Assembly: GCA_035366835.1 (NCBI GenBank)
Contig: DAOSIS010000002.1
Coordinates: 113,208-177,207, forward strand
Direction of reading: 5' to 3'
Origin: Syntrophales bacterium
GTDB lineage: Bacteria > Desulfobacterota > Syntrophia > Syntrophales > UBA6109
Length of the DNA: 64,000 nucleotides
Numbering within the stretch: position 1 is the first letter of the stretch; each line of letters starts with the position of its first letter. Positions 6,325-36,094 of this stretch are shown here, one piece after another. Made by a program: the position numbers and the translations under genes. The notes beneath the pieces are model-generated. The model made no database searches. It was not told where the DNA came from and saw only the letters and a program-made list of their open reading frames with translations.

Positions 6325-6565
6325 TTGCCCTCTTCTGCCGACTATGTATGCAGTATTTCAGATAAACCGTCTGCAATATCACTCCGGCGTAAGTTACCTA
6401 CTTGTTCCCTTTTGTCAAGGTTTTTCGCGGAGAGGAGCAGGCGGCCTGACCGACGAGGATCAGCAGATCTACGGGACAAGACGATTCGCTTCATGGCAAT
6501 AATTATTAGCGATGAAATACAAATAGATAAACAACTATTTTAATACATTATATTACCTAATTATT

Positions 6566-7455: not shown

Positions 7456-8040
7456 TCAGGCGGACCTGCCAAGATGGAAGGCGTCGAGGTTCACCTTCGT
7501 CAGTTTTGCGGGGAATGAATCCTTCAGGACTTTTTCCCAGATCGAAATGTCGATCCCGGTCAGGAACGACGACAGGACGCCAAGCAGCACGGTGTTGACC
7601 GTCCGGATGTTTCCCGCGTTGCGGGCAAGAGCCTCTGCGCGGACGACCTTGGTTGACGGAAAAGCGGACTTGACGGCAGCCACGACATCTGCGGGATAGG
7701 CGAGGTCGCCCAGGTTGACGGAGGGAGGAAGGATCTCCTGGTCGTTGATGATGACGGAGCCGTCCGCCTTGAGGTAATCGAGATAACGGAGGGCCTCCAG
7801 TTTTTCAAAGGCCAGCAGGATATCCACGTCGGACTTGAGGGCCAGAGGTGAAAAGACTTTCCTGCCGTAGCGAACATGACTCGTAACGCAGCCTCCGCGT
7901 TGCGCCATGCCGTGGACCTCGCTCTTCTTGACATCCAGCCCCGCTTCCATGAACACGTTCGCGAGGATGTCGCTCGCCCTGAGAATCCCCTGTCCGCCGA
8001 CGCCGGCAAGAAGGATGCTTCGGGTATCGCCTGTCGTCAT
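7456..8040 (-). CDS. iorB: Indolepyruvate:ferredoxin oxidoreductase, beta subunit
   Basis: Only the last 194 aa of the 777-aa track ORF look real (MTTGDTRSILLAGVGGQGILRASDIL...GMAQRGG). The ATG at 8040-8038 overlaps the iorA stop as ATGA. Confidence 0.9.
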   Translation of the reverse strand: MTTGDTRSILLAGVGGQGILRASDILANVFMEAGLDVKKSEVHGMAQRGGCVTSHVRYGRKVFSPLALKSDVDILLAFEKLEALRYLDYLKADGSVIINDQEILPPSVNLGDLAYPADVVAAVKSAFPSTKVVRAEALARNAGNIRTVNTVLLGVLSSFLTGIDISIWEKVLKDSFPAKLTKVNLDAFHLGRSA

Positions 8041-24586: not shown

Positions 24587-25843
24587 CTATTTCCAGGATC
24601 TTCGGTCGACCATGAGCTTCTCGCCTTCCCCGATCGCGCCGTGCCCGACCCAGAGGATGCGATCGATCCGCAGGCCGCAGAAGTCGCGAAACTTGTCCCG
24701 GAATCTTCGCTCCACCTGTCCACGTTCCGACGTCGGGACGGCCCCTTCCAGACGAAAGGTCAGGGAATCCTCGTGGGAAAAACGCTCGACGACCATCTGA
24801 AACTTGAGATTCGGGAAGAGATCGGTCATCTTCCTGATCTGACTCGGCGCGACGAACATTCCCTTCACCTTCACGGCATCGCCGATCCTGCCCGCGATGC
24901 CGTCCAGCCGCAATGACGTCCGGCCGCACGGGCATTCCGCCTCGATCATGCGGGAGAGATCGCCCGTCCCGAACCGGAAGAGGAAGAAGATGTCATTCAG
25001 CCGTGTAACGACGATCTCGCCGTACTCGCCCGGCCCCACCCTCTTTCCCGTCGCCGGGTCCACGATCTCCACATGGACTTCCTCGCAGAGATGCCAGCCG
25101 TTCCTTTGCCGGCATTCAAACGCGATATCGCCGACTTCCGTGGCCCCGTACATCTGATAGGTTTCGATCCCATACTGCGACTCGAAGATGTCTCGTAGCT
25201 TGGGGTCGAGCGGCTCGGCGGCGAAGCAGGCCCTGCGGAGCCGGAAATCCTTCCGGAAATCGTGACCCGACTCCTCGGCCTTGCGGATAATGGACATCAG
25301 GAAACTCGGTGTTCCCGTATAGGCCGTGACGCCGAGGTCCCTGATCAGTTGAACCTGCAGCTGGGTACCCGAGGTGCCTGCGGGAACGACGGTTGCGCCA
25401 AGCCTCCGTAGGCCGTCGTGAAAGGTCAGGCCCGCTGCGACCAGGTGATAGGAGAAGGCGTTCAGGACGATGTCCCCGCGGCGGATCCCCGCCGCATGGT
25501 AGGCCCGCGCCCAGAGAGGATCCCTCTGTCCGAGATGTGGTTCATAGACCGGCCCGGGCGACGTGAAGATGCGCTCGATCCTCTTTCGGCGGTCGCAAAA
25601 TCCTCCGTAAGGCGGCTCGGCCGCCTCCAGTTCGATCACCTTTTCCCGGGACAACACCGGCAGTTTTTCGAAATCCGCCGGGCTGGCGAAGTGACGGGGC
25701 TTCAGGCCCCTTTCGTCCATCATCCTCTTCACGACAGGGGCCCTCTGATATCCCTTCGCAAGCATGGCCTGGAGCCGTTCCCAGTGAGACGCAAGCCGCT
25801 CGTCGCGACTCCTTTCTTCTCCGGCGTCGTACCCGATCTTCAT
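24587..25843 (-). CDS. Phenylacetate-CoA ligase (PaaK/F390-synthetase) family adenylate-forming enzyme, non-canonical P-loop
   Basis: 418 aa with PaaK-like layout (...YGATEVG..., GDLSR..., KVKG). The position of the SSGTTGKP motif reads TSPGPVYEP. Confidence 0.82.
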   Translation of the reverse strand: MKIGYDAGEERSRDERLASHWERLQAMLAKGYQRAPVVKRMMDERGLKPRHFASPADFEKLPVLSREKVIELEAAEPPYGGFCDRRKRIERIFTSPGPVYEPHLGQRDPLWARAYHAAGIRRGDIVLNAFSYHLVAAGLTFHDGLRRLGATVVPAGTSGTQLQVQLIRDLGVTAYTGTPSFLMSIIRKAEESGHDFRKDFRLRRACFAAEPLDPKLRDIFESQYGIETYQMYGATEVGDIAFECRQRNGWHLCEEVHVEIVDPATGKRVGPGEYGEIVVTRLNDIFFLFRFGTGDLSRMIEAECPCGRTSLRLDGIAGRIGDAVKVKGMFVAPSQIRKMTDLFPNLKFQMVVERFSHEDSLTFRLEGAVPTSERGQVERRFRDKFRDFCGLRIDRILWVGHGAIGEGEKLMVDRRSWK

Positions 25844-25868: not shown

Positions 25869-26669
25869 TCAGAGCCAGCGCTTGCGGCGCCGATATGACT
25901 TCACGTCGCTGTAGGTTCTCGCGGCGCCCGATGCGCCCACCCCCAGGTAGAATTCCTTGACATCCGGGTTTTCGACGAGTTCCGATGCGACACCTTCCAT
26001 GACGATCTTGCCGTTTTCCATGACATAACCGTAATGGGCGATCTGCAGGGCCATCCGCGCGTTCTGTTCCACAAGGACGATGGTCGCCCCCTCTTCCCTG
26101 TTGATTCTCTGGATGATGCGGAAGATCTCCTGCACGACCAGCGGCGCCAGTCCAAGCGACGGCTCGTCCAAGAGGAGCAGGCGGGGATGAGCCATCAGCG
26201 CCCTGCCCATGACCAGCATCTGCAGTTCACCGCCGCTGCAGAAGCCGGCCAGCGACCTGCGCCGCTTCACCAGGGAGGGGAAGTAGTCGTAGACCCGCTC
26301 CAGGTCTTTCCGGTACGGCTTCCAGGGGCGCGTCGCCGTGCCGACGCGAAGATTTTCCTCGACCGTCAGATACTTGAACGGCTGCCTCCCCTCCAGGACC
26401 TGGATGATTCCCATCCGCGTGATTTCTTCCGGCGACAGATTGTCGATGGGATGTCCGTCATAAAGGATATTGCCGTCGGTCACCTTGCCGTTTTCCGGCT
26501 TCAGAAGGCCGGATATGGCGCGCAGGGTCGTCGTCTTGCCGGCCCCGTTGCTTCCGAGGAGACTGACGATCTTTCCCCGGTCCACGTTCAGGGACACGCC
26601 CTTGAGAACCTGGATGACGTCGGAATAGACGACGGAGATGTTGTTGATTTTGAGCAGGTCGCCTTCCAT
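25869..26669 (-). CDS. livF: LIV-type ABC transporter ATP-binding protein (LivF-like)
   Basis: 266 aa. Walker A GSNGAGKTT, signature SGGELQM, Walker B LLLLDEPS. Confidence 0.9.
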   Translation of the reverse strand: MEGDLLKINNISVVYSDVIQVLKGVSLNVDRGKIVSLLGSNGAGKTTTLRAISGLLKPENGKVTDGNILYDGHPIDNLSPEEITRMGIIQVLEGRQPFKYLTVEENLRVGTATRPWKPYRKDLERVYDYFPSLVKRRRSLAGFCSGGELQMLVMGRALMAHPRLLLLDEPSLGLAPLVVQEIFRIIQRINREEGATIVLVEQNARMALQIAHYGYVMENGKIVMEGVASELVENPDVKEFYLGVGASGAARTYSDVKSYRRRKRWL

Positions 26670-26679
26670 GGGTCTCGCC

Positions 26680-27747
26680 TCAATAGGAAAACGGCCAGAG
26701 ACGGAAGCTCGAGCGGACGATTCTCCACATCTCGGCCAGGCCGCGCGGTTCGAAGAGGATGAAGAGGACGATCGCCAGTCCGAATGCGAATTCCCGCAGC
26801 GGTGCGATGTTGATGCCGGACTGGCTGATGAAGCCCAGGTTGATGAGGTTGTCGGTCAGCCAGCGCAGCCCTTCGTTCAGGAGGGTGATGAAGACGGCGC
26901 CGAAGACGGCGCCGGAGACGCTTCCGAGGCCGCCGATGATCACCATGGCGATGTATTCGACGGAAAGCCCGAGATTGAACGGTTCCGTCGTCACGCTGAC
27001 CATGTAGAAAGCCCAGAGGGCCCCCGCGAACCCGGCATAGAAGGAACTGATCGCGAACGACAGCAGCTTGTAACGGAAGATGGGGATCCCCATTCCCTCC
27101 GCCGCCCGGTCGTTGTCGCGGATGGCGATGAAGGCCCTGCCGAACCGCGTTCGCATCAGGTTCACCGCAATCCAGAGGAGCCCGCTCAGGGACGCCAGAA
27201 TGATGAAATAGAACGTCCGGTCCCCCGTCAGTTTCCAGCCGAAGAGACTCGGCGCAGGCAGGGTGATCCCCATGGTGCCCCTGGTGAGACCTTCCCAATG
27301 GATGAGAATGTATTCGATGATGAACTGGCCGGCAAGCGTCGCGATCGTCAGATAAAGCCCCTTCAGGCGTCCCGAGGGAATCCCGAAGACGAGCCCGACG
27401 AGGGCGGTGATCACGGCCGCAGCGGGAACGGCCAGGAGGAACGGAACCCCTGCGGATGTGGCGAGAATCGCCGCGGCATAGGCGCCGACGCCGAAGAAGG
27501 CCCCGTGGCCCAGGGAGATCTGGCCGGTGAATCCGATCAGGATGTTCAGCCCGACGACGGCGATGGCGGCGATGCCGATCGAATTGATCACGTACAGCAG
27601 GTAGGGGCTGGACAGGAAAGGCAGGACCGCCAGGCAGGCCAGCCCGATGACCATGGAAAAGCGGCCGAAATCCGTTTCGAAGACCGTCAGATCCTCCGCG
27701 TAGCCCTCTTTGAAATTCCCGCAGGGGTGGAATCGAAAAAGTCTCAT
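26680..27747 (-). CDS. livM: LIV-type ABC transporter permease (LivM-like)
   Basis: 355 aa, polytopic, with GQISLGHGAFFGVGAY and RDNDRAAEGMGI motifs. Confidence 0.9.
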   Translation of the reverse strand: MRLFRFHPCGNFKEGYAEDLTVFETDFGRFSMVIGLACLAVLPFLSSPYLLYVINSIGIAAIAVVGLNILIGFTGQISLGHGAFFGVGAYAAAILATSAGVPFLLAVPAAAVITALVGLVFGIPSGRLKGLYLTIATLAGQFIIEYILIHWEGLTRGTMGITLPAPSLFGWKLTGDRTFYFIILASLSGLLWIAVNLMRTRFGRAFIAIRDNDRAAEGMGIPIFRYKLLSFAISSFYAGFAGALWAFYMVSVTTEPFNLGLSVEYIAMVIIGGLGSVSGAVFGAVFITLLNEGLRWLTDNLINLGFISQSGINIAPLREFAFGLAIVLFILFEPRGLAEMWRIVRSSFRLWPFSY

Positions 27748-27756
27748 CGTCGCGTC

Positions 27757-28635
27757 CTATACCCTCTCGATCTCCGCGAGCCCGAAGAGCCCGTAGGGCT
27801 TCACCATGAGGATGAAGACCAGCACGATGTACGGTACGACATCCCGGAGGGACGGCGACAGATAGCCGCCCGTGAAGGTCTCGAGGAGCCCGATGAGGAT
27901 TCCTCCCACGATGGCCCCACCGATGCTGTCCAGGCCGCCGAGGATGACGACGGGAAAGACCTTCAGCCCGATGGCCGACAGGTCGTGGACGTTGATCCCG
28001 TTGATGATTCCCAGGACGATGCCGCTCATTCCAGCGACGAGGGCCGCGATCGCCCAGGAGAGCGCGAAGACGCGCTGCACGTGCACGCCGAGCGAGAGGG
28101 CCGCCTTCTGGTTGTCGGCCACCGACCTCATGAAAATGCCCTGCGAGGAATACTTGAAGAACAGTCCGAACAGGAGGAGAAAGCCGACGCCGATGACGAG
28201 CGCCGCGGCATAGACGGGCGGGACATCGACGGGACCGATGCGGAGCCCCATGACCGCCGGGAGGAAGTCCGGATAGGTCTGGAGATTTCCGCCCCACACG
28301 AGGAGCATCATGCCCTTGAACATCGAGGCAAGGCCCACCGTCAGCATGATGACGAAGATCAGGGGTTCGCCGATCAGGGGGCGCAGGAAGACCCTTTCGA
28401 TCAGAAAACCCAGTCCGAAGCAGCCGGCCAGGGTCAGCAGAAAAGCCGGAAGGACCGGCAGTTTCAGCCACGTGATGAGGGCCAGAAAAATGAATGCGCC
28501 GAATGCGAGCAGTTCTCCGTGTGCGAAGTTCAGGACGCTCGAGGATTTGAAAATCATCACGAAGCCCATGGCGGAGATTCCGTACAGGAAACCGATGCAC
28601 AGGCCGTTGATCAGAAGCTGCAGAAAAAAGTCCAT
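27757..28635 (-). CDS. livH: LIV-type ABC transporter permease (LivH-like)
   Basis: 292 aa, polytopic, with NFAHGELLAFGAF and GGLDSIGGAIVGG motifs. Confidence 0.9.
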   Translation of the reverse strand: MDFFLQLLINGLCIGFLYGISAMGFVMIFKSSSVLNFAHGELLAFGAFIFLALITWLKLPVLPAFLLTLAGCFGLGFLIERVFLRPLIGEPLIFVIMLTVGLASMFKGMMLLVWGGNLQTYPDFLPAVMGLRIGPVDVPPVYAAALVIGVGFLLLFGLFFKYSSQGIFMRSVADNQKAALSLGVHVQRVFALSWAIAALVAGMSGIVLGIINGINVHDLSAIGLKVFPVVILGGLDSIGGAIVGGILIGLLETFTGGYLSPSLRDVVPYIVLVFILMVKPYGLFGLAEIERV

Positions 28636-28654: not shown

Positions 28655-30580
28655 TCAGCCGACCGGGATCACGCGGACCTGGGTCTCGATCGTTCCGACC
28701 CGGCCGTCGCGATAGCGGATCTTGCCCTTGACGTCCACCTGCGTTTCATTCCGGTACATCGCCTCGATCAGTTTGATATACAGGCCGTACACGAATCGGC
28801 GGCGGACCTTTCCGGTTCTCGTGAGCTCTTCGTCGTCGGCATCGAGGAGCTTGTAGAGAAGGATGAATTTCCGGATCTTCATGAGATCGGGAAGCTGCTC
28901 GTTCACCTTGACGACCTCTCCGAGGATCAGCTGTTCGACGGGCTGCAGCTGAGACAGGTCCGCATAGGTCGTGTAGGGAATGAGGCGCTCCTCCGCCCAG
29001 CTTCCGACATTTCCCATATCGATGTTGACGAGCGCGGTGATGTAGGGCCGTCCCTCGCCGAAGACGACCACCTCCTTGACGTAGGGGGAGAACTTCAGGC
29101 GCGTTTCGATGAAGTCCGGTGAAAAGGCGTGGCCGCTCTTGTTGCGGATGATCTCTTCCTTTCGCCCGATAATCACGAGCTGTCCGTCCTTGTCGAAATA
29201 CCCGGCGTCCCCCGTCCTGAGCCAGCCCTCGCGAAAAGCGGATTCCGTGGCCTGGAAGTCCTGGTAGTATCCCTGGAAAGCCGTGGGGCTGCTGAGAATC
29301 ACTTCCTCATCGTCGGCCAGCTTGACCTCAATGCCGGGCAGTGGCTTGCCCACGGTCTCCGGCTTGACCTGGTCGTCCGGCTGGATCTGAAAGATGCCGC
29401 CCGCCTCCGTGAGGCCGTAGCACTGCTTCAGGTTCAGACCGACGGCCCGGAAGAAATGGATGACATCCGGACTGATGGGATGGCCGCCGGTGAAGGCGCT
29501 GCGCAGCCGCGTGCATCCCATGCGGTCCAGGAGAGGCAGATAGACCAGGCGCCGGAAAAGGACCTGCAGCCATGACATCCAGGGGGGAATCGCTTCTCCC
29601 CGCGACTGCATCGCCACGACCGATTTGCCGAGCCGCTCCCCGAGGTCGAACAGCCTCTTCTTGATCCAGCCGGCGTCCGACATCTTCACGCGGATCCGCG
29701 AGGCCATCTCCTCCCAGAAGCGCGATGCCGTGATGACCAGGGAAGGGCCGATCTCGCGAAAGTCTTCCGCAACGGTTTCCGGAGTCTCCGGGAAATTCAT
29801 CGTCATCCCGGCGGCGAGCGCAACGCCGAGGCCCCACATCTGATCGACGATCCATGCCGGCGGCGACATGGAGAGCCAGTTCTCGCCCTCCGAGATCGCC
29901 AGCGCCTCCCGCCAGCGCACGCCCATCTCCACGAAGTTCCGGTGGGAGATCATCGCCAGCTTCGGGACCCCCGTCGTTCCGGACGTCAGGATCATGAGGG
30001 CCGTGTCTTCCCGCCGCCCCTTGGCGACCTCCGCCTCGAAGCGCCCGTCGCTTCGCTCCTCCCCGGCGCGTCCCCGTTCCTGCAGCTCGCTGAAGCGGAT
30101 CAGCCAGGGATGGTCTTCGTAGGAAGACATTCCCGTGGGGTCGATGTAGACCACTTTGCGGACGTGGGGAAGCTTCCCGCGCGCGTCGAGCAGCTTGTCC
30201 ACCTGCTCCTGATCCTGCGCCACGACGTAGGCCGCGCGGAAGCGGGAAACGGCGGTCCGCAATTCCTCCGTGATGGACGACGTGAACAGGTTGACGGTCA
30301 CGCCGCCGAGGGACTGCACACCGAGTTCGCAGAACAGCCATTCCGGGTGGTTGTTGACGACGAGGCCGACGATTTCGCCCCGCTTCAAACCCAGTTCATG
30401 GAAGCCCAGGGCGGTGCGGCGGACGTAGCCCAGATACTCCTCCCACGAATAGGCCTGCCAAACGCCGTAGGCCTTTTCCCGCAGGGCCGGCAGCGGCCGG
30501 TTCTTCAGCCGTGCGGCCTGGCGGAGCAGCACCTGCGGCAGCGTCAGCGTCTCGAGAGGCGCTGCGTGGATATCCGTCAT
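28655..30580 (-). CDS. AMP-dependent acyl-CoA synthetase (long-chain-fatty-acid-CoA-ligase-like) embedded in the ABC operon
   Basis: Start at MTDIHAAPLETL (ATG 30580), which overlaps the livG stop as ATGA. Canonical LTSGTTGVPK and YGLTEAGG motifs. 641 aa. Confidence 0.85.
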   Translation of the reverse strand: MTDIHAAPLETLTLPQVLLRQAARLKNRPLPALREKAYGVWQAYSWEEYLGYVRRTALGFHELGLKRGEIVGLVVNNHPEWLFCELGVQSLGGVTVNLFTSSITEELRTAVSRFRAAYVVAQDQEQVDKLLDARGKLPHVRKVVYIDPTGMSSYEDHPWLIRFSELQERGRAGEERSDGRFEAEVAKGRREDTALMILTSGTTGVPKLAMISHRNFVEMGVRWREALAISEGENWLSMSPPAWIVDQMWGLGVALAAGMTMNFPETPETVAEDFREIGPSLVITASRFWEEMASRIRVKMSDAGWIKKRLFDLGERLGKSVVAMQSRGEAIPPWMSWLQVLFRRLVYLPLLDRMGCTRLRSAFTGGHPISPDVIHFFRAVGLNLKQCYGLTEAGGIFQIQPDDQVKPETVGKPLPGIEVKLADDEEVILSSPTAFQGYYQDFQATESAFREGWLRTGDAGYFDKDGQLVIIGRKEEIIRNKSGHAFSPDFIETRLKFSPYVKEVVVFGEGRPYITALVNIDMGNVGSWAEERLIPYTTYADLSQLQPVEQLILGEVVKVNEQLPDLMKIRKFILLYKLLDADDEELTRTGKVRRRFVYGLYIKLIEAMYRNETQVDVKGKIRYRDGRVGTIETQVRVIPVG

Positions 30581-31410
30581 TCGCCGCCCTCCGCCGCATC
30601 CCCGAGGTAGGCCTTGATGACCTCCGGGTGCCCCTTGATTTCCTCCGGCGATCCTTCCGCGAGTTTTTCGCCGAAATTCAGGACAACGATCCGCCGGCAG
30701 ATGCTCATCACGATCGACATGTCGTGTTCGACCAGGATCATGGTCTGTCCCCATTGACGGTTCAGTTCCAGGAGGAAGCGGACCATGTCTTCCTTTTCTT
30801 CCAGGTTCATTCCGGCAAAGGGCTCGTCGAGCACGAGCAGTCTGGGCTCCAGTGCCAGGGCGCGTCCCAGCTCCACGCGCTTCATCATCCCGTAGGGCAG
30901 TGACCCGACGGCCTTCTTCCGGATCGTCTGCATCTCGAGAAAATCGATGATCTCCTCGAGGATGCGGCGATGATGCGTCTCCTCCCGGCGCACCGAGGGG
31001 AGGAAAAGGCTCGAAGACAGAAGACTGTAGTGACAGTGGATGTGGCGCGCCAGCTGGAGGTTCGAGAGCACGGTCATTCCCGGGAAGAGTTCGATGTTCT
31101 GGAAGGTGCGACCGATGCCGATCGGAACGAGGTGATGGGCCGGCAGGGCCGTAATGTCCCGGCCGTTGAAAAGGATCGTGCCCTCCTGGGGCCTGTAGAA
31201 GCCGGTGATGCAGTTGAGCAGGCTCGTTTTCCCCGCGCCGTTGGGCCCGATGACCGCCATCAGTTCTCCCGTTTTCACTTCGAGACTGACGTCGTGCAGC
31301 GCCGATACCCCGCCGAAGCGGAGCGACAGGTTTCGAACCTCCAGTTCGGCGCGCCTGTCCTCCGCCTTTCGGCCGGAAAAGACCGCCGGCTGTCCGCGAT
31401 AAGCCTTCAT
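30577..31410 (-). CDS. livG: LIV-type ABC transporter ATP-binding protein (LivG-like)
   Basis: Start at MKAYRGQPAV (ATG 31410). Walker A GPNGAGKTS, Walker B LLVLDEPFAGM, and the LivG-type insertion. Confidence 0.9.
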   Translation of the reverse strand: MKAYRGQPAVFSGRKAEDRRAELEVRNLSLRFGGVSALHDVSLEVKTGELMAVIGPNGAGKTSLLNCITGFYRPQEGTILFNGRDITALPAHHLVPIGIGRTFQNIELFPGMTVLSNLQLARHIHCHYSLLSSSLFLPSVRREETHHRRILEEIIDFLEMQTIRKKAVGSLPYGMMKRVELGRALALEPRLLVLDEPFAGMNLEEKEDMVRFLLELNRQWGQTMILVEHDMSIVMSICRRIVVLNFGEKLAEGSPEEIKGHPEVIKAYLGDAAEGGE

Positions 31411-31439
31411 GAGATTGCCGATTCCGCTCTGAACCGCCG

Positions 31440-32654
31440 CTACTTCAAGAACTTGATCTTCTCTTTCCCGGGCGTGTAGAAGTTCGTTAACGGCTTGTAC
31501 GAACCGTCTTCCGAAACCTTCACGATGCGGGCCCGGTAGGAAGCTCCATGGTCCGTGGACGTATAGGTGACGGCAGGCAGCAGCCCGCCGAAATCCTCCT
31601 GCCGGAAGGACTCCAGTGCCCGGTTGATGGAACCGCGGCTGACTTCCTTGGATGCCTCGTGGGCGCGGACAAAGGCGCGCTCCATGATCATCCCGACCGC
31701 GACGCCCTCCCAATAGGCGGCGTCGAATTTCTCGACGGTCTTATACCGCTTCCAGAGCTCTTCGATCAACTTCACGCCGGGTGTGCCGTCGGAGGGAAGT
31801 CCGCCCGGGAACTGCATGTTGAGACGGTCGCGGATCAGGCCCTTCCCCAACTTGAAGAAGTCCGGGTCGGTGGACGTCCAGGTTCCGAAGAAGGGCACGT
31901 CGAAGCCGATGCGGTCGGCGCTCTTGAATGCCGTTACGATGGATGCGGGAAGCATCTGGATGAAGATGTACTCGGCCCCGTTCTTCTTCAGGCGCAGGAG
32001 TTCCGTGGTGAGGTCGACGGTCTTCGGGGGGAATTCCTCCACGGATACGATCTGGATCTTCAGCTTCTCCGCGAATTCCTTTGCCGGCTGATGGATGGAG
32101 CGCCCGTAGGGATTGTTGTATGTGAGCAGGCCGACCTTCGGCGCATCCTTGCCCTTGTGGACGGCCCGGATGTATTCCAGGACCGCCTGGCAGTCCATGC
32201 GGTAGCTTCCGAAGGGCAGGTACATATAGTCGATCGGCGGCTCGAGGATCTCCCAGCTCGTGGAATAGTTGATCGTCGGGATTTTGTACTGCTGGATGAT
32301 CGGCTTGGCGGCCAATCCCTCCCCCGCCCCCCACGTGGCGATCATGTCCACGTTCTCCTGAACGGCGAATTTCCTGACGGCCGCGACGGCTTCCGGGACC
32401 TTGTAGGCCGTATCGACCAGGAGCATGTCGATCTTGTTTCCGGCGACGCCGCCCTTCACCTCGTTGACATAGCGGAAGTAGTCCTGTTGTCCCTTGGCAT
32501 GAAACTGGCCCCAGCTGGATGCCGGGCCGGTCATGTTGATCGCGGCACCGACCTTGATCGCCTTTGCCTCGGCGGGAGGCGCAGCGGCCGTCGTTGCCGC
32601 GAAGGCTGCGGCCAGCAGGACGAGCCTCGCATGGAATCCCATCGTTTTCATCAT
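31440..32654 (-). CDS. Periplasmic substrate-binding protein, LIV/type-1 PBP family
   Basis: 404 aa. Signal peptide MMKTMGFHARLVLLAAAFAATTAAAPPAEA followed by IKVGAAINMTGPAS. AAGGAGG Shine-Dalgarno site at 32661-32667. Confidence 0.88.
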   Translation of the reverse strand: MMKTMGFHARLVLLAAAFAATTAAAPPAEAKAIKVGAAINMTGPASSWGQFHAKGQQDYFRYVNEVKGGVAGNKIDMLLVDTAYKVPEAVAAVRKFAVQENVDMIATWGAGEGLAAKPIIQQYKIPTINYSTSWEILEPPIDYMYLPFGSYRMDCQAVLEYIRAVHKGKDAPKVGLLTYNNPYGRSIHQPAKEFAEKLKIQIVSVEEFPPKTVDLTTELLRLKKNGAEYIFIQMLPASIVTAFKSADRIGFDVPFFGTWTSTDPDFFKLGKGLIRDRLNMQFPGGLPSDGTPGVKLIEELWKRYKTVEKFDAAYWEGVAVGMIMERAFVRAHEASKEVSRGSINRALESFRQEDFGGLLPAVTYTSTDHGASYRARIVKVSEDGSYKPLTNFYTPGKEKIKFLK

Positions 32655-32716
32655 CGCTTTCCTCCTTCGGGGAACTGCCCGCGCGAAACCGGCCCCTGCC
32701 GGCTTCCCACAGCGGC

Positions 32717-32756
32717 AAAAAAAAGCCGCGGTCGACCCCTTCGGTCCGCCCGCGGC
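32717..32756 (-). terminator. Intrinsic terminator inside the ABC-operon leader (proposed attenuator 3:4 helix)
   Basis: The minus strand reads GCCGCGG-GCG-GACC-GAAGG-GGUC-GA-CCGCGGC followed by U8. It sits 62 nt upstream of the substrate-binding-protein ATG and about 130 nt downstream of the candidate promoter. Confidence 0.6.
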
Positions 32757-32780
32757 TCATTTGTCCCTTATGTCTTCAGG

Positions 32781-32858
32781 TCATGAGCGCGTCAGGCAGA
32801 CCTCCGCAAAATAGGTAAAAAAGCCAAAAAACAAGTCTGCCCGGTTTGCTCGATGCAT
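32781..32858 (-). CDS. Putative Phe-rich regulatory leader peptide (25 aa): MHRANRADLFFGFFTYFAEVCLTRS
   Basis: ATG at 32858-32856 lies 11 nt downstream of GAGGAAG. Codons 10-17 encode FFGFFTYF, with all 5 Phe as TTT and Tyr as TAT. TGA stop at 32783-32781. Too short to appear in the ORF track. Confidence 0.45.
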   Translation of the reverse strand: MHRANRADLFFGFFTYFAEVCLTRS

Positions 32859-32891
32859 GGTGAAAGTCGCTTCCTCGGAAAAACTGTCCAC

Positions 32892-32920
32892 CCTATAGAG
32901 TTCCCGTCTCAAAAAGTCAA
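32892..32920 (-). promoter_or_regulatory. Sigma70-type promoter candidate for the leader/ABC operon: TTGACT-17 nt-TATAGG
   Basis: On the minus strand, TTGACT is at 32920-32915 and TATAGG at 32897-32892. It lies 36 nt downstream of the response-regulator stop codon. Confidence 0.45.
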
Positions 32921-32955
32921 GCGATTTGTTCCGTCTTTTCCCTCCGCGGCCGCCC

Positions 32956-34320
32956 TCAAACGATCTCGAACTTCTCGATCTTGTACTTCAGGGAGTCGTC
33001 CGTGACTTTCAGAAGCTCCGCCGCCTTGTTCTTCGCCCCCTTTGTCTTCTGCAGCGCCTTCTCGATCAGGCTCTTTTCAAACAGCGACACGGCCTCGTTG
33101 AGGTCGACGCCCTCTTCGGGGAGATCCAGGGCGGATGCGCCGACCCTCTCGAGGACGGAGGACGGCTGCAGCAGGTTCTCCGGCAGGACGATCGTCGACG
33201 CCTCCAGGGCGACGCTTCTTTCGATGATATTCTCCAGTTCCCGGACATTGCCGGGAAACGGATACTCCAGGAGGAGGCCCAGCGCATAGGCCGATATGGC
33301 CCGGGCCTCTTTTCCGTAAATCCGCGAGAATTTTTCGGCGAAATGCTTGGTGAGAATGGGAATGTCCTCCCGGCGGTTCCGCAGCGGCGGGATCACGATC
33401 GGGATGACATTGAGGCGGTAATACAGGTCCTCGCGGAATCCCCCCTCGCGGACCTTTTTCTCCAGGTCCTGATTCGTCGCCGAGATGATCCGCACGTTGA
33501 CCTTGATGTCCTCGATGCCGCCGATTCTCCGGAACGTCTTTTCCTGCACGACGCGGAGAAGCTTGACCTGCAGCGGCGGCGGGAGTTCACCGACTTCGTC
33601 GAGAAAAATCGTGCCGCCCCTGGCCGCCTCGAAAAGGCCCGGCTTGTCGAAGTAGGCATTGGTGAAGGAGCCTTTCATGTGGCCGAACAGCTCGGACTCC
33701 AGCAGATTCTCCGGAATGCCGCCGCAATTGATTGCCACGAAGGGCAGCTTGGCCTGCGGGCCGTGATCATGGATCGCCCTCGCGACGAGCTCCTTGCCGG
33801 TCCCGCTTTCACCCAGCAGGAGGACGTTGGCCGGCGTATCCCCGATCTTGCGGACCGTCGAGAAGATCCTGAGCATGTCCTTGTTCCTGGCGATCATGTC
33901 GCCGAAGTGGACCGCATCGTCCGAGTCCCGCTGAAAAGGAGCCTGTTCCTCCTTGAGTCCCTTCGTATCCAGGGCCTGCCGGATGAGGCGCTTGAGGTCA
34001 TCGACGTCGAAATCCTTCTCGACATAGTCGTAGGCCCCCTCTTTCATCGCGCGCACCGCGGTTTCACCCGTCGCATAAGCCGTAATCAGGATCACGAGGG
34101 TCCCCGGCGACAGTTCCTTGACGGATTTGAGAAACTCGAGGCCGTCCATTTTCGGCATCTTCAGGTCCGTCAGGATGAGATCGAAGTTTTCCTTCCTGCA
34201 CCGGTTCAAGCCCTTCATGCCGTCCGCTTCGCAGACGACGCTGTACCCTTCCCGGGTCAGCATGATCTCGAGCAGTTCCCGGACGCCGGCGTCGTCATCC
34301 ACAACAAGGATTCTTGTCAT
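32956..34320 (-). CDS. Sigma54-dependent response regulator (REC, AAA+, Fis-type HTH; NtrC/AtoC family)
   Basis: 454 aa. DDDAGVRELL...D54-type receiver, GESGTGKE Walker A, GAFTGA-like GSFTNA, and a C-terminal HTH (KNKAAELLKVTDDSLKYKI). The ATG overlaps the kinase stop as ATGA. Confidence 0.92.
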   Translation of the reverse strand: MTRILVVDDDAGVRELLEIMLTREGYSVVCEADGMKGLNRCRKENFDLILTDLKMPKMDGLEFLKSVKELSPGTLVILITAYATGETAVRAMKEGAYDYVEKDFDVDDLKRLIRQALDTKGLKEEQAPFQRDSDDAVHFGDMIARNKDMLRIFSTVRKIGDTPANVLLLGESGTGKELVARAIHDHGPQAKLPFVAINCGGIPENLLESELFGHMKGSFTNAYFDKPGLFEAARGGTIFLDEVGELPPPLQVKLLRVVQEKTFRRIGGIEDIKVNVRIISATNQDLEKKVREGGFREDLYYRLNVIPIVIPPLRNRREDIPILTKHFAEKFSRIYGKEARAISAYALGLLLEYPFPGNVRELENIIERSVALEASTIVLPENLLQPSSVLERVGASALDLPEEGVDLNEAVSLFEKSLIEKALQKTKGAKNKAAELLKVTDDSLKYKIEKFEIV

Positions 34321-36023
34321 CCCCCAACCTCACTGGCCGCATCGGCGGTGACCGGTTTCTTTTCAGGACGCGAGGACAGCCAGACTGCAACGGACGTTCC
34401 CCGTCCCGGCTCGCTTTCCAGGCGCACCCGGCCGCCGTGGTTTTCCACGATGCGCCGCACGATCGCCAGCCCCAGTCCCGTCCCTCGTTCACGAGTCGTA
34501 TAAAACGGCTCGAACACTCTCTGCAAGACATCTTTTCTCATGCCTGCACCCGTATCGCTGACCCTGAGGGTCACGCCGTCCGGATCGGAGGTGCGGGCCA
34601 GGCACACCGACACGGCGCCTTCCTCCGAAATCGATTGGACGGCATTCATCAGGAGGTTCCAGATCAACTGACGCATTTCCGCGCGATTCGCCGAGATCCG
34701 GGCATCGTCCCCGGTCAGTTCGACGCGGATGCCTTCGTGCCAGTCGGACACGTACCGGATCGCTTCGACGACATCGTTCACGAGGCCACGCAGCTCGATC
34801 GTTTCCTTCGTACCCGGTGACGGCCTCGCGAGGAGGAGAAAGTCCTTCATGAAGTTTTCGATCTGGTCCTTGCCGCGCAGGATGATCGACATCAGCCGCT
34901 CATCCGCCGCATTCAGCTGCAGGTCCTTCCTGAGCACCTGGATGGATCCGCTGATGGACGCAAGGGGATTGCGTATCTCGTGGGCCAGAACGGCGGCCAT
35001 TTCGCCGACGAAGGCGAGACGCCTGTTCTTCTCGTATTCCGCCTCCATCTTCTTCACGGCCGTCAGGTCGTGGAAGATCACGATGCTGCCGATCCTTTTC
35101 CCTTCCGCGCCCCGCAGAGGCGACAGGACCCATCCGAGGACGAGGCGTTCGCCGTCTTTCCTGGCGAATGCCAGATCGGTCCCCTTCTGCCTGCCCTCCG
35201 GCGAAGGCGGCTGCTCGTTCGCCTTCTCCACCGCAGCGGCAATTGCGGGAAAGACCTCGCGCAAGGGCCGGTTCAGCAGCTCGGCGAAGACATACCCCGT
35301 AATCTCCTCTGCGGCGCGGTTGAACGACTTGATCCTGCCGAGAAGGTCGATCGTGAAGATTCCCGCATCCACGGACTCGATGATGCTGCGATGAAGGACG
35401 TCCAGCTGGTCGAACGCCGTTTGCTTCTCTGCCAGGAGAAGACGGGCTCTCCTTTCCTGCCCGACGACGAAGCTTGCGAGAAGCGCGATCACGAAAAAGG
35501 AGAGGATGTGCACGAAACTCCGCGTCAGCGCCTCCCCCGGCGTGAGCGGCAGATCCTGCAGGAGAAAGGCGGTGGGGGGCTCGATCCATCCGTAGTACTC
35601 CAGATCCACGAGCAGGCCGTAGACGATGCTGCAGGCGGAGGCAGCCGTCATTCCGCCGCGACGCCCGAGAAAGATCACGGAATAGATGACGATCATCTGG
35701 TAGAATGCCGAGTAGACGCTGCGGCAGCCCCCCGTCAGATAGACCAGGACGGAAACCAGGCCGATATCGCAAAGCGACTGGATGTAGATGTGGGCGCGTT
35801 CGCGGTCGATGACCCGCAGCAGGAAGACATACGCGATCGAGACGAGATAGAACAGCAGCGCCGTACGATAGAGTGCGGCCGTCGACTCCACCGGGAACAG
35901 CGCCAGTTGACGAAACTGCAGGCTGATGGCGACGCCAAGCAGGAGCGTCGCCAATCCCACGCGCCCCAGCATCAGCCACCATATCCGCTTGTCGATTCCG
36001 GAATTCTCCTGCGACCGATTCAT
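34317..36023 (-). CDS. Membrane sensor histidine kinase (polytopic N-terminus, PAS, HisKA, HATPase)
   Basis: Start at MNRSQENSGIDKRIWW (ATG 36023) behind GAAGAGG. About 6 TM helices, a PAS domain, H-box HEIRNPLASI, and G-boxes DTGAGM and GTGLGL. Confidence 0.88.
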   Translation of the reverse strand: MNRSQENSGIDKRIWWLMLGRVGLATLLLGVAISLQFRQLALFPVESTAALYRTALLFYLVSIAYVFLLRVIDRERAHIYIQSLCDIGLVSVLVYLTGGCRSVYSAFYQMIVIYSVIFLGRRGGMTAASACSIVYGLLVDLEYYGWIEPPTAFLLQDLPLTPGEALTRSFVHILSFFVIALLASFVVGQERRARLLLAEKQTAFDQLDVLHRSIIESVDAGIFTIDLLGRIKSFNRAAEEITGYVFAELLNRPLREVFPAIAAAVEKANEQPPSPEGRQKGTDLAFARKDGERLVLGWVLSPLRGAEGKRIGSIVIFHDLTAVKKMEAEYEKNRRLAFVGEMAAVLAHEIRNPLASISGSIQVLRKDLQLNAADERLMSIILRGKDQIENFMKDFLLLARPSPGTKETIELRGLVNDVVEAIRYVSDWHEGIRVELTGDDARISANRAEMRQLIWNLLMNAVQSISEEGAVSVCLARTSDPDGVTLRVSDTGAGMRKDVLQRVFEPFYTTRERGTGLGLAIVRRIVENHGGRVRLESEPGRGTSVAVWLSSRPEKKPVTADAASEVGG

Positions 36024-36074
36024 GGCCTCTTCATTGATACGCGATAAATTATTCTGTGCTCCGCGAAGGCGCAA

Positions 36075-36083
36075 TGCTATAAT
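36075..36083 (+). promoter_or_regulatory. Extended -10 promoter candidate (TGcTATAAT) giving a near-leaderless comEC mRNA
   Basis: A perfect TATAAT at 36078-36083 is preceded by TG at 36075-36076. The comEC ATG at 36095 has no Shine-Dalgarno site. Confidence 0.35.
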
Positions 36084-36094
36084 ATTTTTCCAAA

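What the first reader, a model, noticed from the sequence alone, without database searches (positions are those of the whole stretch)
32717..32920. Candidate ribosome-mediated, Phe-sensing transcription attenuator in front of the ABC-transporter / acyl-CoA-ligase operon
All of the following is read directly from the minus strand.
(1) TTGACT-17 nt-TATAGG at 32920-32892.
(2) GAGGAAG at 32876-32870, followed 11 nt later by an ATG at 32858.
(3) A 25-codon ORF, MHRANRADLFFGFFTYFAEVCLTRS*. Codons 10-17 (32831-32808) encode FFGFFTYF. All five Phe codons are TTT and Tyr is TAT, which are AT-ending codons in an otherwise GC3-rich genome.
(4) Segment 1, GGCAGAC (32841-32835, codons 6-8), can pair with segment 2, GUCUGCC (32801-32795, codons 20-22).
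(5) Segment 2, extended to GGUCUGCCUG (32802-32793), can instead pair with segment 3, CGGGCGGACC (32752-32743). That gives 10 bp, two of them G-U.
(6) Segment 3 is the 5' half of a terminator: GCCGCGG..GACC-GAAGG-GGUC..CCGCGGC followed by U8 (32756-32717).
(7) The stop codon lies 9 nt after segment 2, so a ribosome that finishes the peptide would cover segment 2 and let the terminator form. A ribosome stalled at the Phe codons would cover segment 1 and free segment 2 for the antiterminator.
This is the classic 1:2 / 2:3 / 3:4 logic of the enterobacterial pheA and pheST leaders. Here it sits in front of an uptake/activation operon in a delta-type anaerobe, a context I am not aware of having been described. 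Sixty-two nt further on come the AAGGAGG site and the ATG of the substrate-binding-protein gene.
Basis: partly seen in the sequence, partly recalled or inferred. Interest (0 to 1): 0.85.

Follow-up and report, generated by a model that had tools for sequence, protein, structure and literature searches.

The report
Phenylalanine-sensing leader-peptide transcription attenuator
A short phenylalanine-rich mini-gene and a switchable RNA terminator sit in front of a transporter/CoA-ligase operon in a syntrophic anaerobe, and the same RNA switch recurs in related bacteria with tryptophan-, tyrosine- or mixed-codon mini-genes in front of matching aromatic amino-acid pathways, so it almost certainly turns the operon on when phenylalanine runs short.

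Summary
The comparative evidence supports the attenuator interpretation.

- **Conservation:** All 47 orthologous loci from Syntrophales, Smithellaceae and Desulfomonilia genomes, and 57 metagenome loci, carry the same layout in front of the orthologous binding-protein gene. The layout is a TTGAC promoter, a short ORF with 4-8 Phe codons, three mutually exclusive helices (1:2, 2:3, 3:4) and a U-tract.
- **Structure:** The terminator and the antiterminator both show compensatory changes. In the window the two conformers are nearly isoenergetic (-56.0 versus -54.2 kcal/mol).
- **Coding signature:** In the Phe runs, C occurs almost only at the synonymous codon position (TTC 62, CTT 1, TCT 0).
- **Family:** The same RNA scaffold occurs with WWWW leaders before indolepyruvate oxidoreductase + ABC + PaaK operons. 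It occurs with Tyr-rich leaders before another binding-protein/PaaK/IorA operon, and with mixed F/Y/W leaders before shikimate-pathway operons.

The element is not in Rfam 15, and I found no description of it in the searchable literature. It is a new variant (a new family) of a well-known mechanism. It points to a phenylalanine-supply role for an uncharacterised operon. In vivo Phe responsiveness is untested.

The parts
32915..32920 (-). -35 hexamer TTGACT of the leader promoter
   Evidence: Read. TTGAC[AT]-N17/18-TAnnnn is present upstream of the leader in 46 of 48 loci.
32892..32897 (-). -10 hexamer TATAGG
   Evidence: It lies 33 nt before the leader ATG. The consensus scan did not call it because position 6 is G.
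32870..32876 (-). Shine-Dalgarno-like GAGGAAG of the leader ORF
   Evidence: A GAGG/AGGT-type site lies upstream of the leader start codon in most relatives.
32781..32858 (-). Leader ORF, 25 codons plus TGA: MHRANRADLFFGFFTYFAEVCLTRS*
   Evidence: Orthologous ORFs of 17-33 codons occur in all loci. Length differences are always whole codons, and the stop lies 19 nt after the start of GGTCTGCC in 43/48.
32808..32831 (-). Regulatory codon run FFGFFTYF (5 TTT, 1 TAT)
   Evidence: The codon-position test on 90 unique leaders gives TTC 62, CTT 1, TCT 0. TTT is the minor Phe codon in neighbouring genes, 38 against 150 TTC.
32835..32841 (-). Segment 1 (GGCAGAC), 5' arm of the 1:2 helix
   Evidence: 7 bp with segment 2. 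The extended duplex is -25.4 kcal/mol, z = -3.3 against shuffles. A comparable 1:2 duplex is found in most loci with different sequences, for example CAGGCAG/CUGCCUG, CGGCGGG/CCCGCCG and UCGGGC/GCCCGG.
32793..32802 (-). Segment 2 (GGUCUGCCUG), which pairs with either segment 1 or segment 3
   Evidence: It is nearly invariant at the nucleotide level, although it is read in different frames or lies outside the ORF in other family members.
32783..32788 (-). Distal 5' arm of the antiterminator (GCUCAU), overlapping the stop codon
   Evidence: It pairs with AUGAGC 32760-32755 in the MFE and the masked folds. It is replaced by GUUUG/CAAGC in L002 and by GCUUUU/AAAAGC in L035, both read from the sequences.
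32755..32760 (-). Distal 3' arm of the antiterminator (AUGAGC)
32743..32752 (-). Segment 3 (CGGGCGGACC), shared by the antiterminator and the terminator
   Evidence: The GC to AU double change at alignment columns 143:202 in the Desulfomonilia loci keeps the 2:3 pairing.
32717..32756 (-). Intrinsic terminator (3:4): 7 bp plus an internal loop plus 4 bp, loop GAAGG, then U8 (32724-32717)
   Evidence: -23.1 kcal/mol in isolation. It is the RNAalifold consensus. 90% of cells are paired and 6 pairs carry double changes.
32675..32718 (-). Stable hairpin between the terminator and the binding-protein RBS, with no U-tract
   Evidence: It occupies the place where about 40% of family members have a second terminator-like hairpin, GGCCGUGG..CCACGGCC followed by U6-9.
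32661..32667 (-). AAGGAGG ribosome-binding site of the substrate-binding-protein gene
31440..32654 (-). First regulated gene: periplasmic substrate-binding protein (Peripla_BP_6, LivJ/K type)
   Evidence: Pfam 2e-48. 100% identical to a protein of Syntrophaceae bacterium PtaU1.Bin231. The nearest solved structure is 3lkb, E = 5e-33.
30577..31410 (-). LivG-like ABC ATPase
   Evidence: Start codon chosen.
28655..30580 (-). 641-aa AMP-binding acyl-CoA ligase (FadD11-like)
   Evidence: It is conserved after the binding protein in 39 of 47 genome loci.
25869..28635 (-). LivH-like and LivM-like permeases and LivF-like ATPase
24587..25843 (-). PaaK-like (phenylacetate-CoA-ligase family) enzyme, last gene of the operon
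   Evidence: NCBIfam PaaK models give 9e-61 and 7e-53, but below the equivalog cut-offs. The best solved relatives are phenylacetate-CoA ligases 4r1l and 2y4o. The gene is conserved at the operon end in metagenome loci.

Best explanation
This is a ribosome-mediated (leader-peptide) transcription attenuator that responds to phenylalanine supply, read out as charged tRNA-Phe.

Transcription starts a few bases after the TATAGG box. The 25-codon leader is translated while RNA polymerase proceeds.

- **Phe-tRNA plentiful:** the ribosome runs to the UGA stop at 32783-32781 and covers segment 2 (32802-32793). Segment 3 then pairs with segment 4. The terminator (32756-32725) plus U8 forms and transcription stops at about 32717.
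- **Phe-tRNA scarce:** the ribosome stalls in the first Phe codons (32831 onward) and covers segment 1. Segment 2 and the distal arm GCUCAU pair with segment 3 and AUGAGC, giving an 18-bp antiterminator. The terminator cannot form, and polymerase reads into the binding-protein / ABC / acyl-CoA-ligase / PaaK-like operon.

Shown here by computation:
- the anatomy and its conservation;
- covariation in both helices;
- near-equal energies of the two conformers;
- a coding signature in the Phe run;
- a family of sister elements whose codon runs match their operons.

Inferred: stalling, antitermination in vivo, and the physiological role.

The most likely role of the operon is phenylalanine supply. 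It would import Phe, or more likely an aryl-acid precursor such as phenylacetate, and activate it to the CoA ester. Reductive carboxylation by an indolepyruvate-type ferredoxin oxidoreductase and then transamination would yield Phe.
For: **Anatomy**
- All listed features are at the stated coordinates.

**Conservation**
- 47/47 genome loci with the orthologous binding protein (66-93% identical; Syntrophales, Smithellaceae, Desulfomonilia) have a short ORF with 4-8 Phe, plus segments 1-4 and a U-tract.
- So do 57 metagenome loci.
- The upstream gene varies, while the TTGAC-N17/18-TA promoter stays with the leader in 46/48 loci.

**Structure**
- RNAalifold finds the terminator.
- Terminator: 90% of cells paired, against 31-43% when the partner columns are slid; 6 pairs carry double changes.
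- Antiterminator: 84% of cells paired, against 27-42% when slid; 5 pairs carry double changes.
- The 1:2 duplex has z of -2 to -6 in most loci, with different sequences in different clades.

**Energetics in the window**
- T-state -56.0 and A-state -54.2 kcal/mol.
- Masking a ribosome footprint on the Phe codons gives the antiterminator. Masking the stop codon gives the terminator.

**Translation signature**
- ORF lengths run from 17 to 33 codons, always in frame with the run.
- In the runs of 90 unique leaders, TTC 62 against CTT 1 and TCT 0, with TAT 43.
- The window uses 5/5 TTT, although TTT is only 20% of Phe codons in neighbouring genes.

**Specificity across the family (Pfam)**
- WWWW leaders precede IorA-IorB-LivHMGF-PaaK.
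- Tyr-rich leaders precede a different Peripla_BP_6 protein + ABC + PaaK + IorA.
- F/Y leaders precede chorismate mutase-prephenate dehydratase.
- Mixed F/Y/W leaders precede DAHP synthase, or DeoC-aldolase + DHQ synthase II, followed by aroD/E/A/K/C.
- A W-rich mixed leader precedes aroE-trpE.
- The reading frame across GGUCUGCC differs between types (VCL/VCP versus GLP). The RNA is therefore the conserved part, and the peptides share only the aromatic run.

**Role**
- Aryl acids feed aromatic amino-acid synthesis through indolepyruvate oxidoreductase in Methanococcus maripaludis (as cited in PMC4162585).
- The window has IorA/IorB homologues at 7459-9839.
Against: - There is no experimental evidence of any kind. 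No transcription start, no short transcript, no evidence that the leader is translated, and no Phe dependence.
- In the window the Shine-Dalgarno site is 11 nt from the ATG, which is rather far.
- With no ribosome at all, the fold of the nascent RNA up to segment 3 already prefers 2:3 over 1:2. The untranslated default state is therefore unclear and must depend on folding kinetics.
- A ribosome stalled at the last Phe codons (5 nt before segment 2) would itself cover segment 2. Only the earlier codons of the run can act as effective stall sites.
- The operon's substrate is unknown. The PaaK-like protein scores below the equivalog cut-offs. The nearest solved relative of the binding protein is an amino-acid binder. 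No IOR gene is inside this operon.
- Covariation counts on related sequences can be inflated by phylogeny. This caveat comes with the tool used.
Confidence: 0.85

Rival explanations
1. The hairpin and U-tract are simply the terminator of the upstream pilS/pilR-like two-component operon. On this view the Phe-rich ORF and the alternative pairings are chance features of a T-rich spacer.
For: The regulator gene ends at 32956, only about 200 nt upstream, and no other terminator lies between it and the hairpin. The hairpin would stop any read-through from it.
Against: The upstream gene is different in most of the 47 loci, yet the promoter, ORF, helices and terminator are conserved together with the binding-protein gene. 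C substitutions in the run are confined to the synonymous position. Sister elements carry W or Y runs that match their operons.
Confidence: 0.02
2. The short ORF encodes a functional small hydrophobic peptide, for example a membrane micro-protein or a transporter accessory. On this view the RNA helices are secondary.
For: The ORF with a ribosome-binding site is conserved. Leader peptides with functions in trans are known for Sinorhizobium peTrpL (PMC7298713, listed).
Against: Apart from the aromatic run, the peptide sequence is not conserved. The C-terminal residues are dictated by the RNA scaffold and change with the reading frame (VCL versus GLP). In Desulfomonilia the ORF stops before segment 2. 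The run switches to W or Y according to the operon.
Confidence: 0.03
3. The conserved scaffold is bound by a protein or small ligand that senses aromatic compounds (TRAP-like or riboswitch-like control). The ORFs would be incidental or only modulatory.
For: Segments 2-4 are nearly invariant at the nucleotide level across operons with different specificities. This could suggest a common trans-acting partner.
Against: A common ligand or protein would not explain why the codon run tracks the operon's amino acid, nor the synonymous-site pattern. The conserved part is just two competing helices with no complex junction. There is no Rfam match.
Confidence: 0.05
4. Regulation goes through the leader ORF, but the signal is different. 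It could be nascent-peptide arrest that senses free amino acid (TnaC-like), or general translation or elongation stress, rather than tRNA-Phe charging.
For: The geometry is the same as in the main model. Runs of Phe, Tyr or Trp give bulky aromatic nascent chains. U-rich Phe runs are slippery in E. coli pheL (PMC3082878, listed).
Against: No conserved arrest motif exists beyond the run itself. Induction by excess amino acid would make no sense for shikimate and trp operons carrying the same scaffold.
Confidence: 0.05

Closest known systems
Enterobacterial pheL-pheA and pheM-pheST leader-peptide attenuators (Rfam Phe_leader RF01859)
   Same: Both have a short ORF with a run of Phe codons, three competing helices (1:2, 2:3, 3:4), and an intrinsic terminator before the first structural gene. 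Both are induced when tRNA-Phe charging is low.
   Different: There is no sequence or structure homology: cmscan gives no match even at E <= 10. The phylum is different (Syntrophales and Desulfomonilia). The regulated genes are an ABC importer and two acyl-CoA ligases, not pheA or pheST. The Phe run is interrupted by Ser, Gly or Tyr codons.
trpL, hisL, thrL, leuL and ilvL attenuators of Proteobacteria, and the leader-peptide attenuators predicted in Actinobacteria (PMC1262725)
   Same: The general mechanism and logic are the same. In each, the regulatory codons match the pathway's end product.
   Different: Here one RNA scaffold (GGUCUGCCYG ... CCGUGGGCAGA ... CCCACGG-Un) is reused with F, Y, W or mixed codon runs, and in different reading frames, before at least eight kinds of operon. 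In the classical cases each operon has its own unrelated leader. About 40% of members add a second terminator-like hairpin whose 5' arm can pair with the 3' arm of the first terminator.
Aryl-acid route to aromatic amino acids through indolepyruvate:ferredoxin oxidoreductase in Methanococcus maripaludis (Porat et al., as cited in PMC4162585) and in rumen anaerobes (from my own knowledge)
   Same: The gene content of the W-type and Y-type sister operons (IorAB + PaaK-like ligase + importer), and of this operon (importer + PaaK-like ligase, with IorAB elsewhere in the window), fits uptake, CoA activation and reductive carboxylation of aryl acids.
   Different: To my knowledge, no regulatory link to amino-acid starvation and no dedicated ABC importer has been described for that pathway. 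The substrate of this operon is not established.
T-box leaders (tRNA-sensing riboswitches) that control amino-acid transporters in Firmicutes and some delta-type bacteria
   Same: Both sense tRNA charging and control a terminator/antiterminator choice in front of uptake or biosynthesis genes.
   Different: There is no T-box or specifier architecture and no Rfam T-box match. Sensing here would go through a translating ribosome, not through direct tRNA binding.

Membership tests
Leader-peptide (ribosome-mediated) transcription attenuators | A short ORF with its own start codon and ribosome-binding site inside the 5' leader | tested here: met
   ATG at 32858 with GAGGAAG 11 nt upstream, 25 codons. 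Equivalent ORFs occur in 47/47 genome loci, most with a GAGG/AGGT site.
Leader-peptide (ribosome-mediated) transcription attenuators | A cluster of codons for the regulating amino acid, maintained as codons | tested here: met
   The run FFGFFTYF is present. Relatives have 4-8 Phe. TTC 62 against CTT 1 and TCT 0 in the runs of 90 unique leaders.
Leader-peptide (ribosome-mediated) transcription attenuators | Mutually exclusive antiterminator and terminator helices that share a segment, positioned so that ribosome location selects between them | tested here: met
   Segment 3 is shared. The energies are -56.0 and -54.2 kcal/mol, and footprint masking switches the fold. Both helices are kept with compensatory changes. 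The stop codon sits at a fixed 19 nt after the start of segment 2 in 43/48 loci.
Leader-peptide (ribosome-mediated) transcription attenuators | An intrinsic terminator (GC-rich hairpin plus U-tract) upstream of the first structural gene | tested here: met
   32756-32717 with U8, 62 nt before the ATG of the binding-protein gene.
Leader-peptide (ribosome-mediated) transcription attenuators | Read-through increases when the cognate aminoacyl-tRNA is limiting and depends on leader translation | not testable with these tools
   This needs Term-seq or Northern blots, reporter fusions, or coupled in vitro transcription-translation.
Rfam Phe_leader (RF01859) and other curated leader families | A match to the family covariance model | tested here: not met
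   cmscan of 30000-36000 at E <= 10 gives no hit in 32717-32920. Six sister loci give no leader hit. The only match near them is a weak sub-threshold Termite-leu match at a terminator.
Sigma-54 promoter driven by the adjacent NtrC/PilR-type activator | A -24/-12 element TGGCAC-N5-TTGC (GG-N10-GC) in the intergenic region | tested here: not met
   The best GG-N10-GC sites match only 6 of 11 consensus positions. GGC-U8-GC at the terminator has N9 spacing. The activator gene is not a conserved neighbour.
Phenylacetate-CoA ligase PaaK (for the last gene of the operon) | A score above the NCBIfam equivalog cut-off | tested here: not met
   205.7 bits against a cut-off of 700, and 179.6 against 646. 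It is a family member of unknown substrate, and its best solved relatives are PaaK enzymes.

The most novel reading that the evidence does not exclude
The window's leader is one module of a lineage-specific family of aromatic amino-acid attenuators in Syntrophales and related Thermodesulfobacteriota. A single terminator/antiterminator scaffold is reused, and only the codon run is exchanged: F, Y, W or mixtures.

Together these elements would govern two things. One is the de novo shikimate and terminal pathways. The other is three parallel, so far unrecognised aryl-acid salvage operons, each an ABC importer + PaaK-like CoA ligase +/- IorAB. These would convert phenylacetate, 4-hydroxyphenylacetate and indoleacetate into Phe, Tyr and Trp.

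The regulatory logic would then assign a function to a very widespread class of 'branched-chain amino-acid transporter + acyl-CoA ligase' operons.
Probability: 0.5. Interest if true: 0.75.

Novelty: new variant of a known kind. Interest (0 to 1): 0.6.

Why it matters
**What is old and what is new.** Leader-peptide attenuation is textbook biology, so the mechanism is not new. Three things are.

1. It defines a conserved attenuator family in syntrophic anaerobes. About 100 of 120 matches in a truncated metagenome scan are real, plus 47 genome species. The family is absent from Rfam 15 and was not found in the searchable literature.
2. The family is modular. The same RNA switch carries Phe, Tyr, Trp or mixed codon runs, in different reading frames. 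This makes it a natural experiment on how attenuator specificity evolves, and a ready-made design for engineered sensors.
3. The codon run works as a functional label. It says that this operon, annotated only as a branched-chain amino-acid transporter with fatty-acid and phenylacetate CoA ligases, serves phenylalanine supply. Sister operons with IorAB would serve Trp and Tyr.

**Wider relevance.** That gives a directly testable hypothesis: Syntrophales in methanogenic digesters salvage aryl acids released by protein fermenters instead of making aromatic rings de novo. This bears on cross-feeding and on the energy budget of organisms living near the thermodynamic limit.

Tried and rejected
1. 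**Sigma-54 promoter.** The upstream gene is an NtrC/PilR-type activator, so I looked for a sigma-54 promoter. No acceptable -24/-12 site exists, and the synteny is not conserved.
2. **Decayed pilin gene.** I asked whether the small ORF is a decayed pilin gene downstream of pilS/pilR, as in Geobacter (that gene order is from my own knowledge). It has no G|FTLIE-type prepilin motif, and the ORF travels with the transporter operon instead. Rejected.
3. **Rfam.** No family matches the leader. The 27-bit Termite-leu hit in L054 lies on the terminator hairpins and is well below the gathering score.
4. **Consensus scan.** The promoter/terminator scan finds neither site because of its strict rules. 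That is not evidence against them.
5. **Extra copies.** nhmmer with the leader alignment finds one copy per locus and only one in the 64-kb window.
6. **Segment 1 alignment.** MAFFT misaligns segment 1 by one codon between clades, so 1:2 could not be scored by alignment columns. I used per-sequence duplex folding with shuffles instead.
7. **Literature.** Seven full-text searches found no description of these leaders. Subscription-journal work on attenuators in delta-type bacteria cannot be excluded.
8. **Chance matches.** About 20 of the 120 metagenome pattern matches lie inside coding regions, with no U-tract and no aromatic ORF. I discarded them as chance.
9. **IorA homologue.** The IorA homologue in the window has no leader of its own. 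It follows a TPR-like gene with a gap of about 25 nt.
Full report
**Observation**

- TTGACT (32920-32915), 17 nt, TATAGG (32897-32892).
- GAGGAAG (32876-32870), then 11 nt, then ATG at 32858.
- A 25-codon ORF, MHRANRADLFFGFFTYFAEVCLTRS, ending in TGA (32783-32781).
- The run FFGFFTYF at 32831-32808, with five TTT and one TAT.
- Segment 1 GGCAGAC (32841-32835), complementary to GUCUGCC (32801-32795).
- GGUCUGCCUG (32802-32793), complementary to CGGGCGGACC (32752-32743), with two G-U pairs.
- A terminator at 32756-32725 followed by U8 (32724-32717).
- 62 nt further on, the ATG of a substrate-binding-protein gene, preceded by AAGGAGG.

The pairings were checked base by base. The codon-bias remark is correct: nine neighbouring genes use TTT 38 times and TTC 150 times, with GC3 of 0.82. 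The simple consensus scan lists neither the promoter nor the terminator. Its rules demand a T at position 6 of the -10 box and an uninterrupted stem.

**Context**

The binding protein is 100% identical to a protein of Syntrophaceae bacterium PtaU1.Bin231.

Downstream on the same strand lie seven genes:
- a Peripla_BP_6 binding protein (31440-32654);
- a LivG-like ATPase (30577-31410);
- a 641-aa AMP-binding ligase (28655-30580);
- LivH-like and LivM-like permeases and a LivF-like ATPase (25869-28635);
- a PaaK-like ligase (24587-25843).

Upstream lie a PilS-like histidine kinase and an NtrC/PilR-type sigma-54 activator. No acceptable -24/-12 promoter is present in the intergenic region.

**Comparative test in genomes**

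A genome scan with the binding protein returned 47 loci from Syntrophales, Smithellaceae and Desulfomonilia MAGs, at 66-93% identity.
- Every one carries the same arrangement directly upstream of the binding-protein gene: a short ORF with 4-8 Phe codons, the conserved motifs CAGGCAG-type segment 1, GGTCTGCCYG, CCGTGGGCAGA and CCCACGG, and a T-run.
- The gene upstream of the leader differs among loci.
- A TTGAC[AT]-N17/18-TAnnnn promoter stays with the leader in 46 of 48.

The element therefore belongs to the transporter operon, not to the regulator gene.

**Structure**

On the 48-sequence alignment A1, RNAalifold returns the terminator as the consensus.
- For the terminator, 90% of cells form pairs, against 31-43% when the partner columns are slid. 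Six pairs carry changes on both sides.
- For the antiterminator (segment 2 plus the distal arm, with segment 3 plus AUGAGC), 84% of cells pair, against 27-42% when slid. Five pairs carry double changes. One is GC to AU at columns 143:202 in the Desulfomonilia loci.
- Reading the sequences, the distal part also covaries. GCUCAU/AUGAGC in the window becomes GUUUG/CAAGC in L002 and GCUUUU/AAAAGC in L035.
- MAFFT misaligns segment 1, so I scored 1:2 per sequence. Most loci have a duplex with z of -2 to -6 against shuffles. It is built from different sequences in different clades and always overlaps segment 2.

The tool's own caveat applies: related sequences can exceed the shuffle control without any structure.

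**Energetics in the window**

For the 169-nt transcript ending at the U-tract:
- The conformer with 1:2 and 3:4 is the MFE, at -56.0 kcal/mol.
- The conformer with 2:3 enforced is -54.2 kcal/mol.
- Masking a ribosome footprint over the early Phe codons yields the 18-bp antiterminator and destroys the terminator.
- Masking a footprint at the stop codon yields the terminator.

One loose end remains. Without any ribosome, the nascent RNA up to segment 3 already prefers 2:3. The untranslated default therefore depends on kinetics that I could not model.

**Evidence that the run is read as codons**
- Leader lengths vary from 17 to 33 codons, but always by whole codons.
- The stop codon lies 19 nt after the start of GGTCTGCC in 43 of 48 loci.
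- In the runs of 90 unique Phe-type leaders, codons made of two T and one C are TTC 62 times, CTT once and TCT never. Among two-T-plus-A codons, TAT (Tyr) dominates.

This is the signature of selection for aromatic codons in this frame, not of a mere T-rich spacer.

**The wider family**

I scanned the metagenome collection for the scaffold alone, GGTCTGCCYG-N26-50-CCGTGGGCAGA.
- About 100 are real leaders, with a U-tract, an aromatic-rich ORF ending at segment 2, and an nhmmer match to the scaffold.
- About 20 are chance matches inside coding regions.
- Fifty-seven have the orthologous binding protein and Phe-rich leaders.

The others keep the RNA scaffold but change the peptide (proteins confirmed with Pfam, and by source names):

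| Leader type | Example | Downstream genes |
|---|---|---|
| Trp | MGSRHLILWWWWCKEGGGVCP | IorA, IorB, LivH/M/G/F, PaaK-like |
| Tyr-rich | ...YGYGYLRRSARR | a different Peripla_BP_6 protein, ABC genes, PaaK-like, IorA |
| F/Y | (L070, L096, L129) | chorismate mutase-prephenate dehydratase |
| Phe-rich | (L054, L061, L081) | a 514-aa AMP-binding ligase |
| Mixed F/Y/W | (L057, L065, L071, L131, L145 and others) | DAHP synthase, or DeoC-type aldolase + DHQ synthase II, then aroD/E/A/K/C |
| W-rich mixed | (L153) | aroE-trpE |

The reading frame across GGUCUGCC differs between types (..VCL/VCP.. versus ..GLP..). In the Desulfomonilia loci the ORF stops at segment 2. What is conserved is therefore the RNA switch plus an aromatic codon run whose identity tracks the operon. 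This is hard to explain except by ribosome-mediated attenuation.

**Mechanism**

With ample Phe-tRNA the ribosome reaches UGA, covers segment 2, and the terminator forms. With scarce Phe-tRNA it stalls early in the run, covers segment 1, and segment 2 pairs with segment 3. Polymerase then reads through.

The anatomy, conservation, covariation, energetics and specificity pattern are computed results. Stalling and regulation in vivo are inference.

Exclusive use of the minor, wobble-decoded TTT codon in a GC3-rich genome may sharpen sensitivity. This is my inference.

**Likely role of the operon**

Induction on Phe starvation implies Phe acquisition. The operon combines an importer with two CoA ligases, one of them of the phenylacetate-CoA-ligase family. 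The W-type and Y-type sister operons add IorAB. The window has IorA/IorB homologues at 7459-9839.

An aryl-acid route to aromatic amino acids through indolepyruvate oxidoreductase is established in Methanococcus maripaludis (cited in PMC4162585). From my own knowledge it also operates in rumen anaerobes.

I therefore favour uptake and activation of phenylacetate or a similar aryl acid for Phe synthesis, at roughly even odds. Direct Phe import is the main alternative. The PaaK-like protein is below the equivalog cut-offs, and the ligand of the binding protein is unknown.

**Comparison with known systems, and novelty**

Functionally this is a pheL/trpL-type attenuator. It meets every sequence-level defining feature of that class.

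It is not a member of any curated Rfam leader family. Seven literature searches found no description of it, although subscription journals are not covered.

I rate it a new variant of a known kind: a new, modular attenuator family in a new lineage, controlling unusual targets.

**Verdict**

- Observation: confirmed.
- Confidence in the mechanism: about 0.85.
- Confidence in the proposed physiological role: about 0.5.
- Interest: 0.6.

Noticed in passing
L062, L097, L119, L138, L156 (W type); L056, L099, L103, L113, L118 (Y type); L057, L060, L065, L071, L082, L120, L131, L141, L145, L150, L159, L166 (mixed): The same terminator/antiterminator scaffold carries leaders rich in Trp, in Tyr, or in mixed F/Y/W. 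These sit before IorAB/ABC/PaaK operons, a second binding-protein operon, and shikimate-pathway operons. The codon run tracks the operon.
   Followed up: yes
For example L003 3866-3895, L024, L036, L045, L054, L056, L057; window 32675-32718: About 40% of family members have a second terminator-like hairpin (GGCCGUGG..CCACGGCC plus U6-9) right after the first terminator. Its 5' arm is complementary to the 3' arm of the first terminator, so antitermination could be relayed from one to the other. The window has a stable hairpin at that place but no U-tract.
   Followed up: partly
L035, L037, L038, L046 (Desulfomonilia-type loci): In these loci the leader stop codon (TAG) overlaps the start of segment 2. 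The -10 box ends only 8-9 nt before the leader ATG, and there is no Shine-Dalgarno site. This suggests a leaderless mRNA for the leader peptide.
   Followed up: partly
window 7459-9839 (-): IorA (36% identical to the W-operon IorA) and IorB homologues lie about 15 kb from the attenuated operon. They have no leader of their own and follow a TPR-like gene after about 25 nt. They could supply the reductive carboxylation step.
   Followed up: partly
window 32956-36365 (-): A PilS-like (6TM_PilS) histidine kinase and an NtrC/PilR-type sigma-54 activator lie directly upstream. No pilin gene and no sigma-54 promoter follows them. This neighbourhood is not conserved in most relatives.
   Followed up: partly
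Phe runs of the 90 unique F-type leaders (for example L008 3797-3962): The Phe runs are regularly interrupted by AGC (Ser, 87 occurrences) or GGC (Gly, 32 occurrences), often as UUUUUUAGCUUU. These interruptions may break long U runs that would otherwise promote slippage or premature termination.
   Followed up: no
L104 (leader ending near 249; downstream 252-1500): A Phe-type leader with an intact scaffold is followed by unrelated ORFs. By my reading the second is a glycosyltransferase-like protein. There is no binding-protein gene. This could be a rearrangement or an assembly chimera.
   Followed up: no
L142 (leader MRRYKSGRIFHYYYIGRKGLPGD; gene at 5646-6569, minus strand): A Tyr-type leader precedes a metallo-beta-lactamase-fold (ODP-like) protein. 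This target has no obvious link to aromatic amino-acid metabolism.
   Followed up: no
L054 2886-2937: There is a weak, sub-threshold Rfam match to Termite-leu RNA (27 bits against a gathering score of 51), lying on the tandem terminator hairpins. It is probably only a resemblance between hairpins with U-tracts.
   Followed up: no
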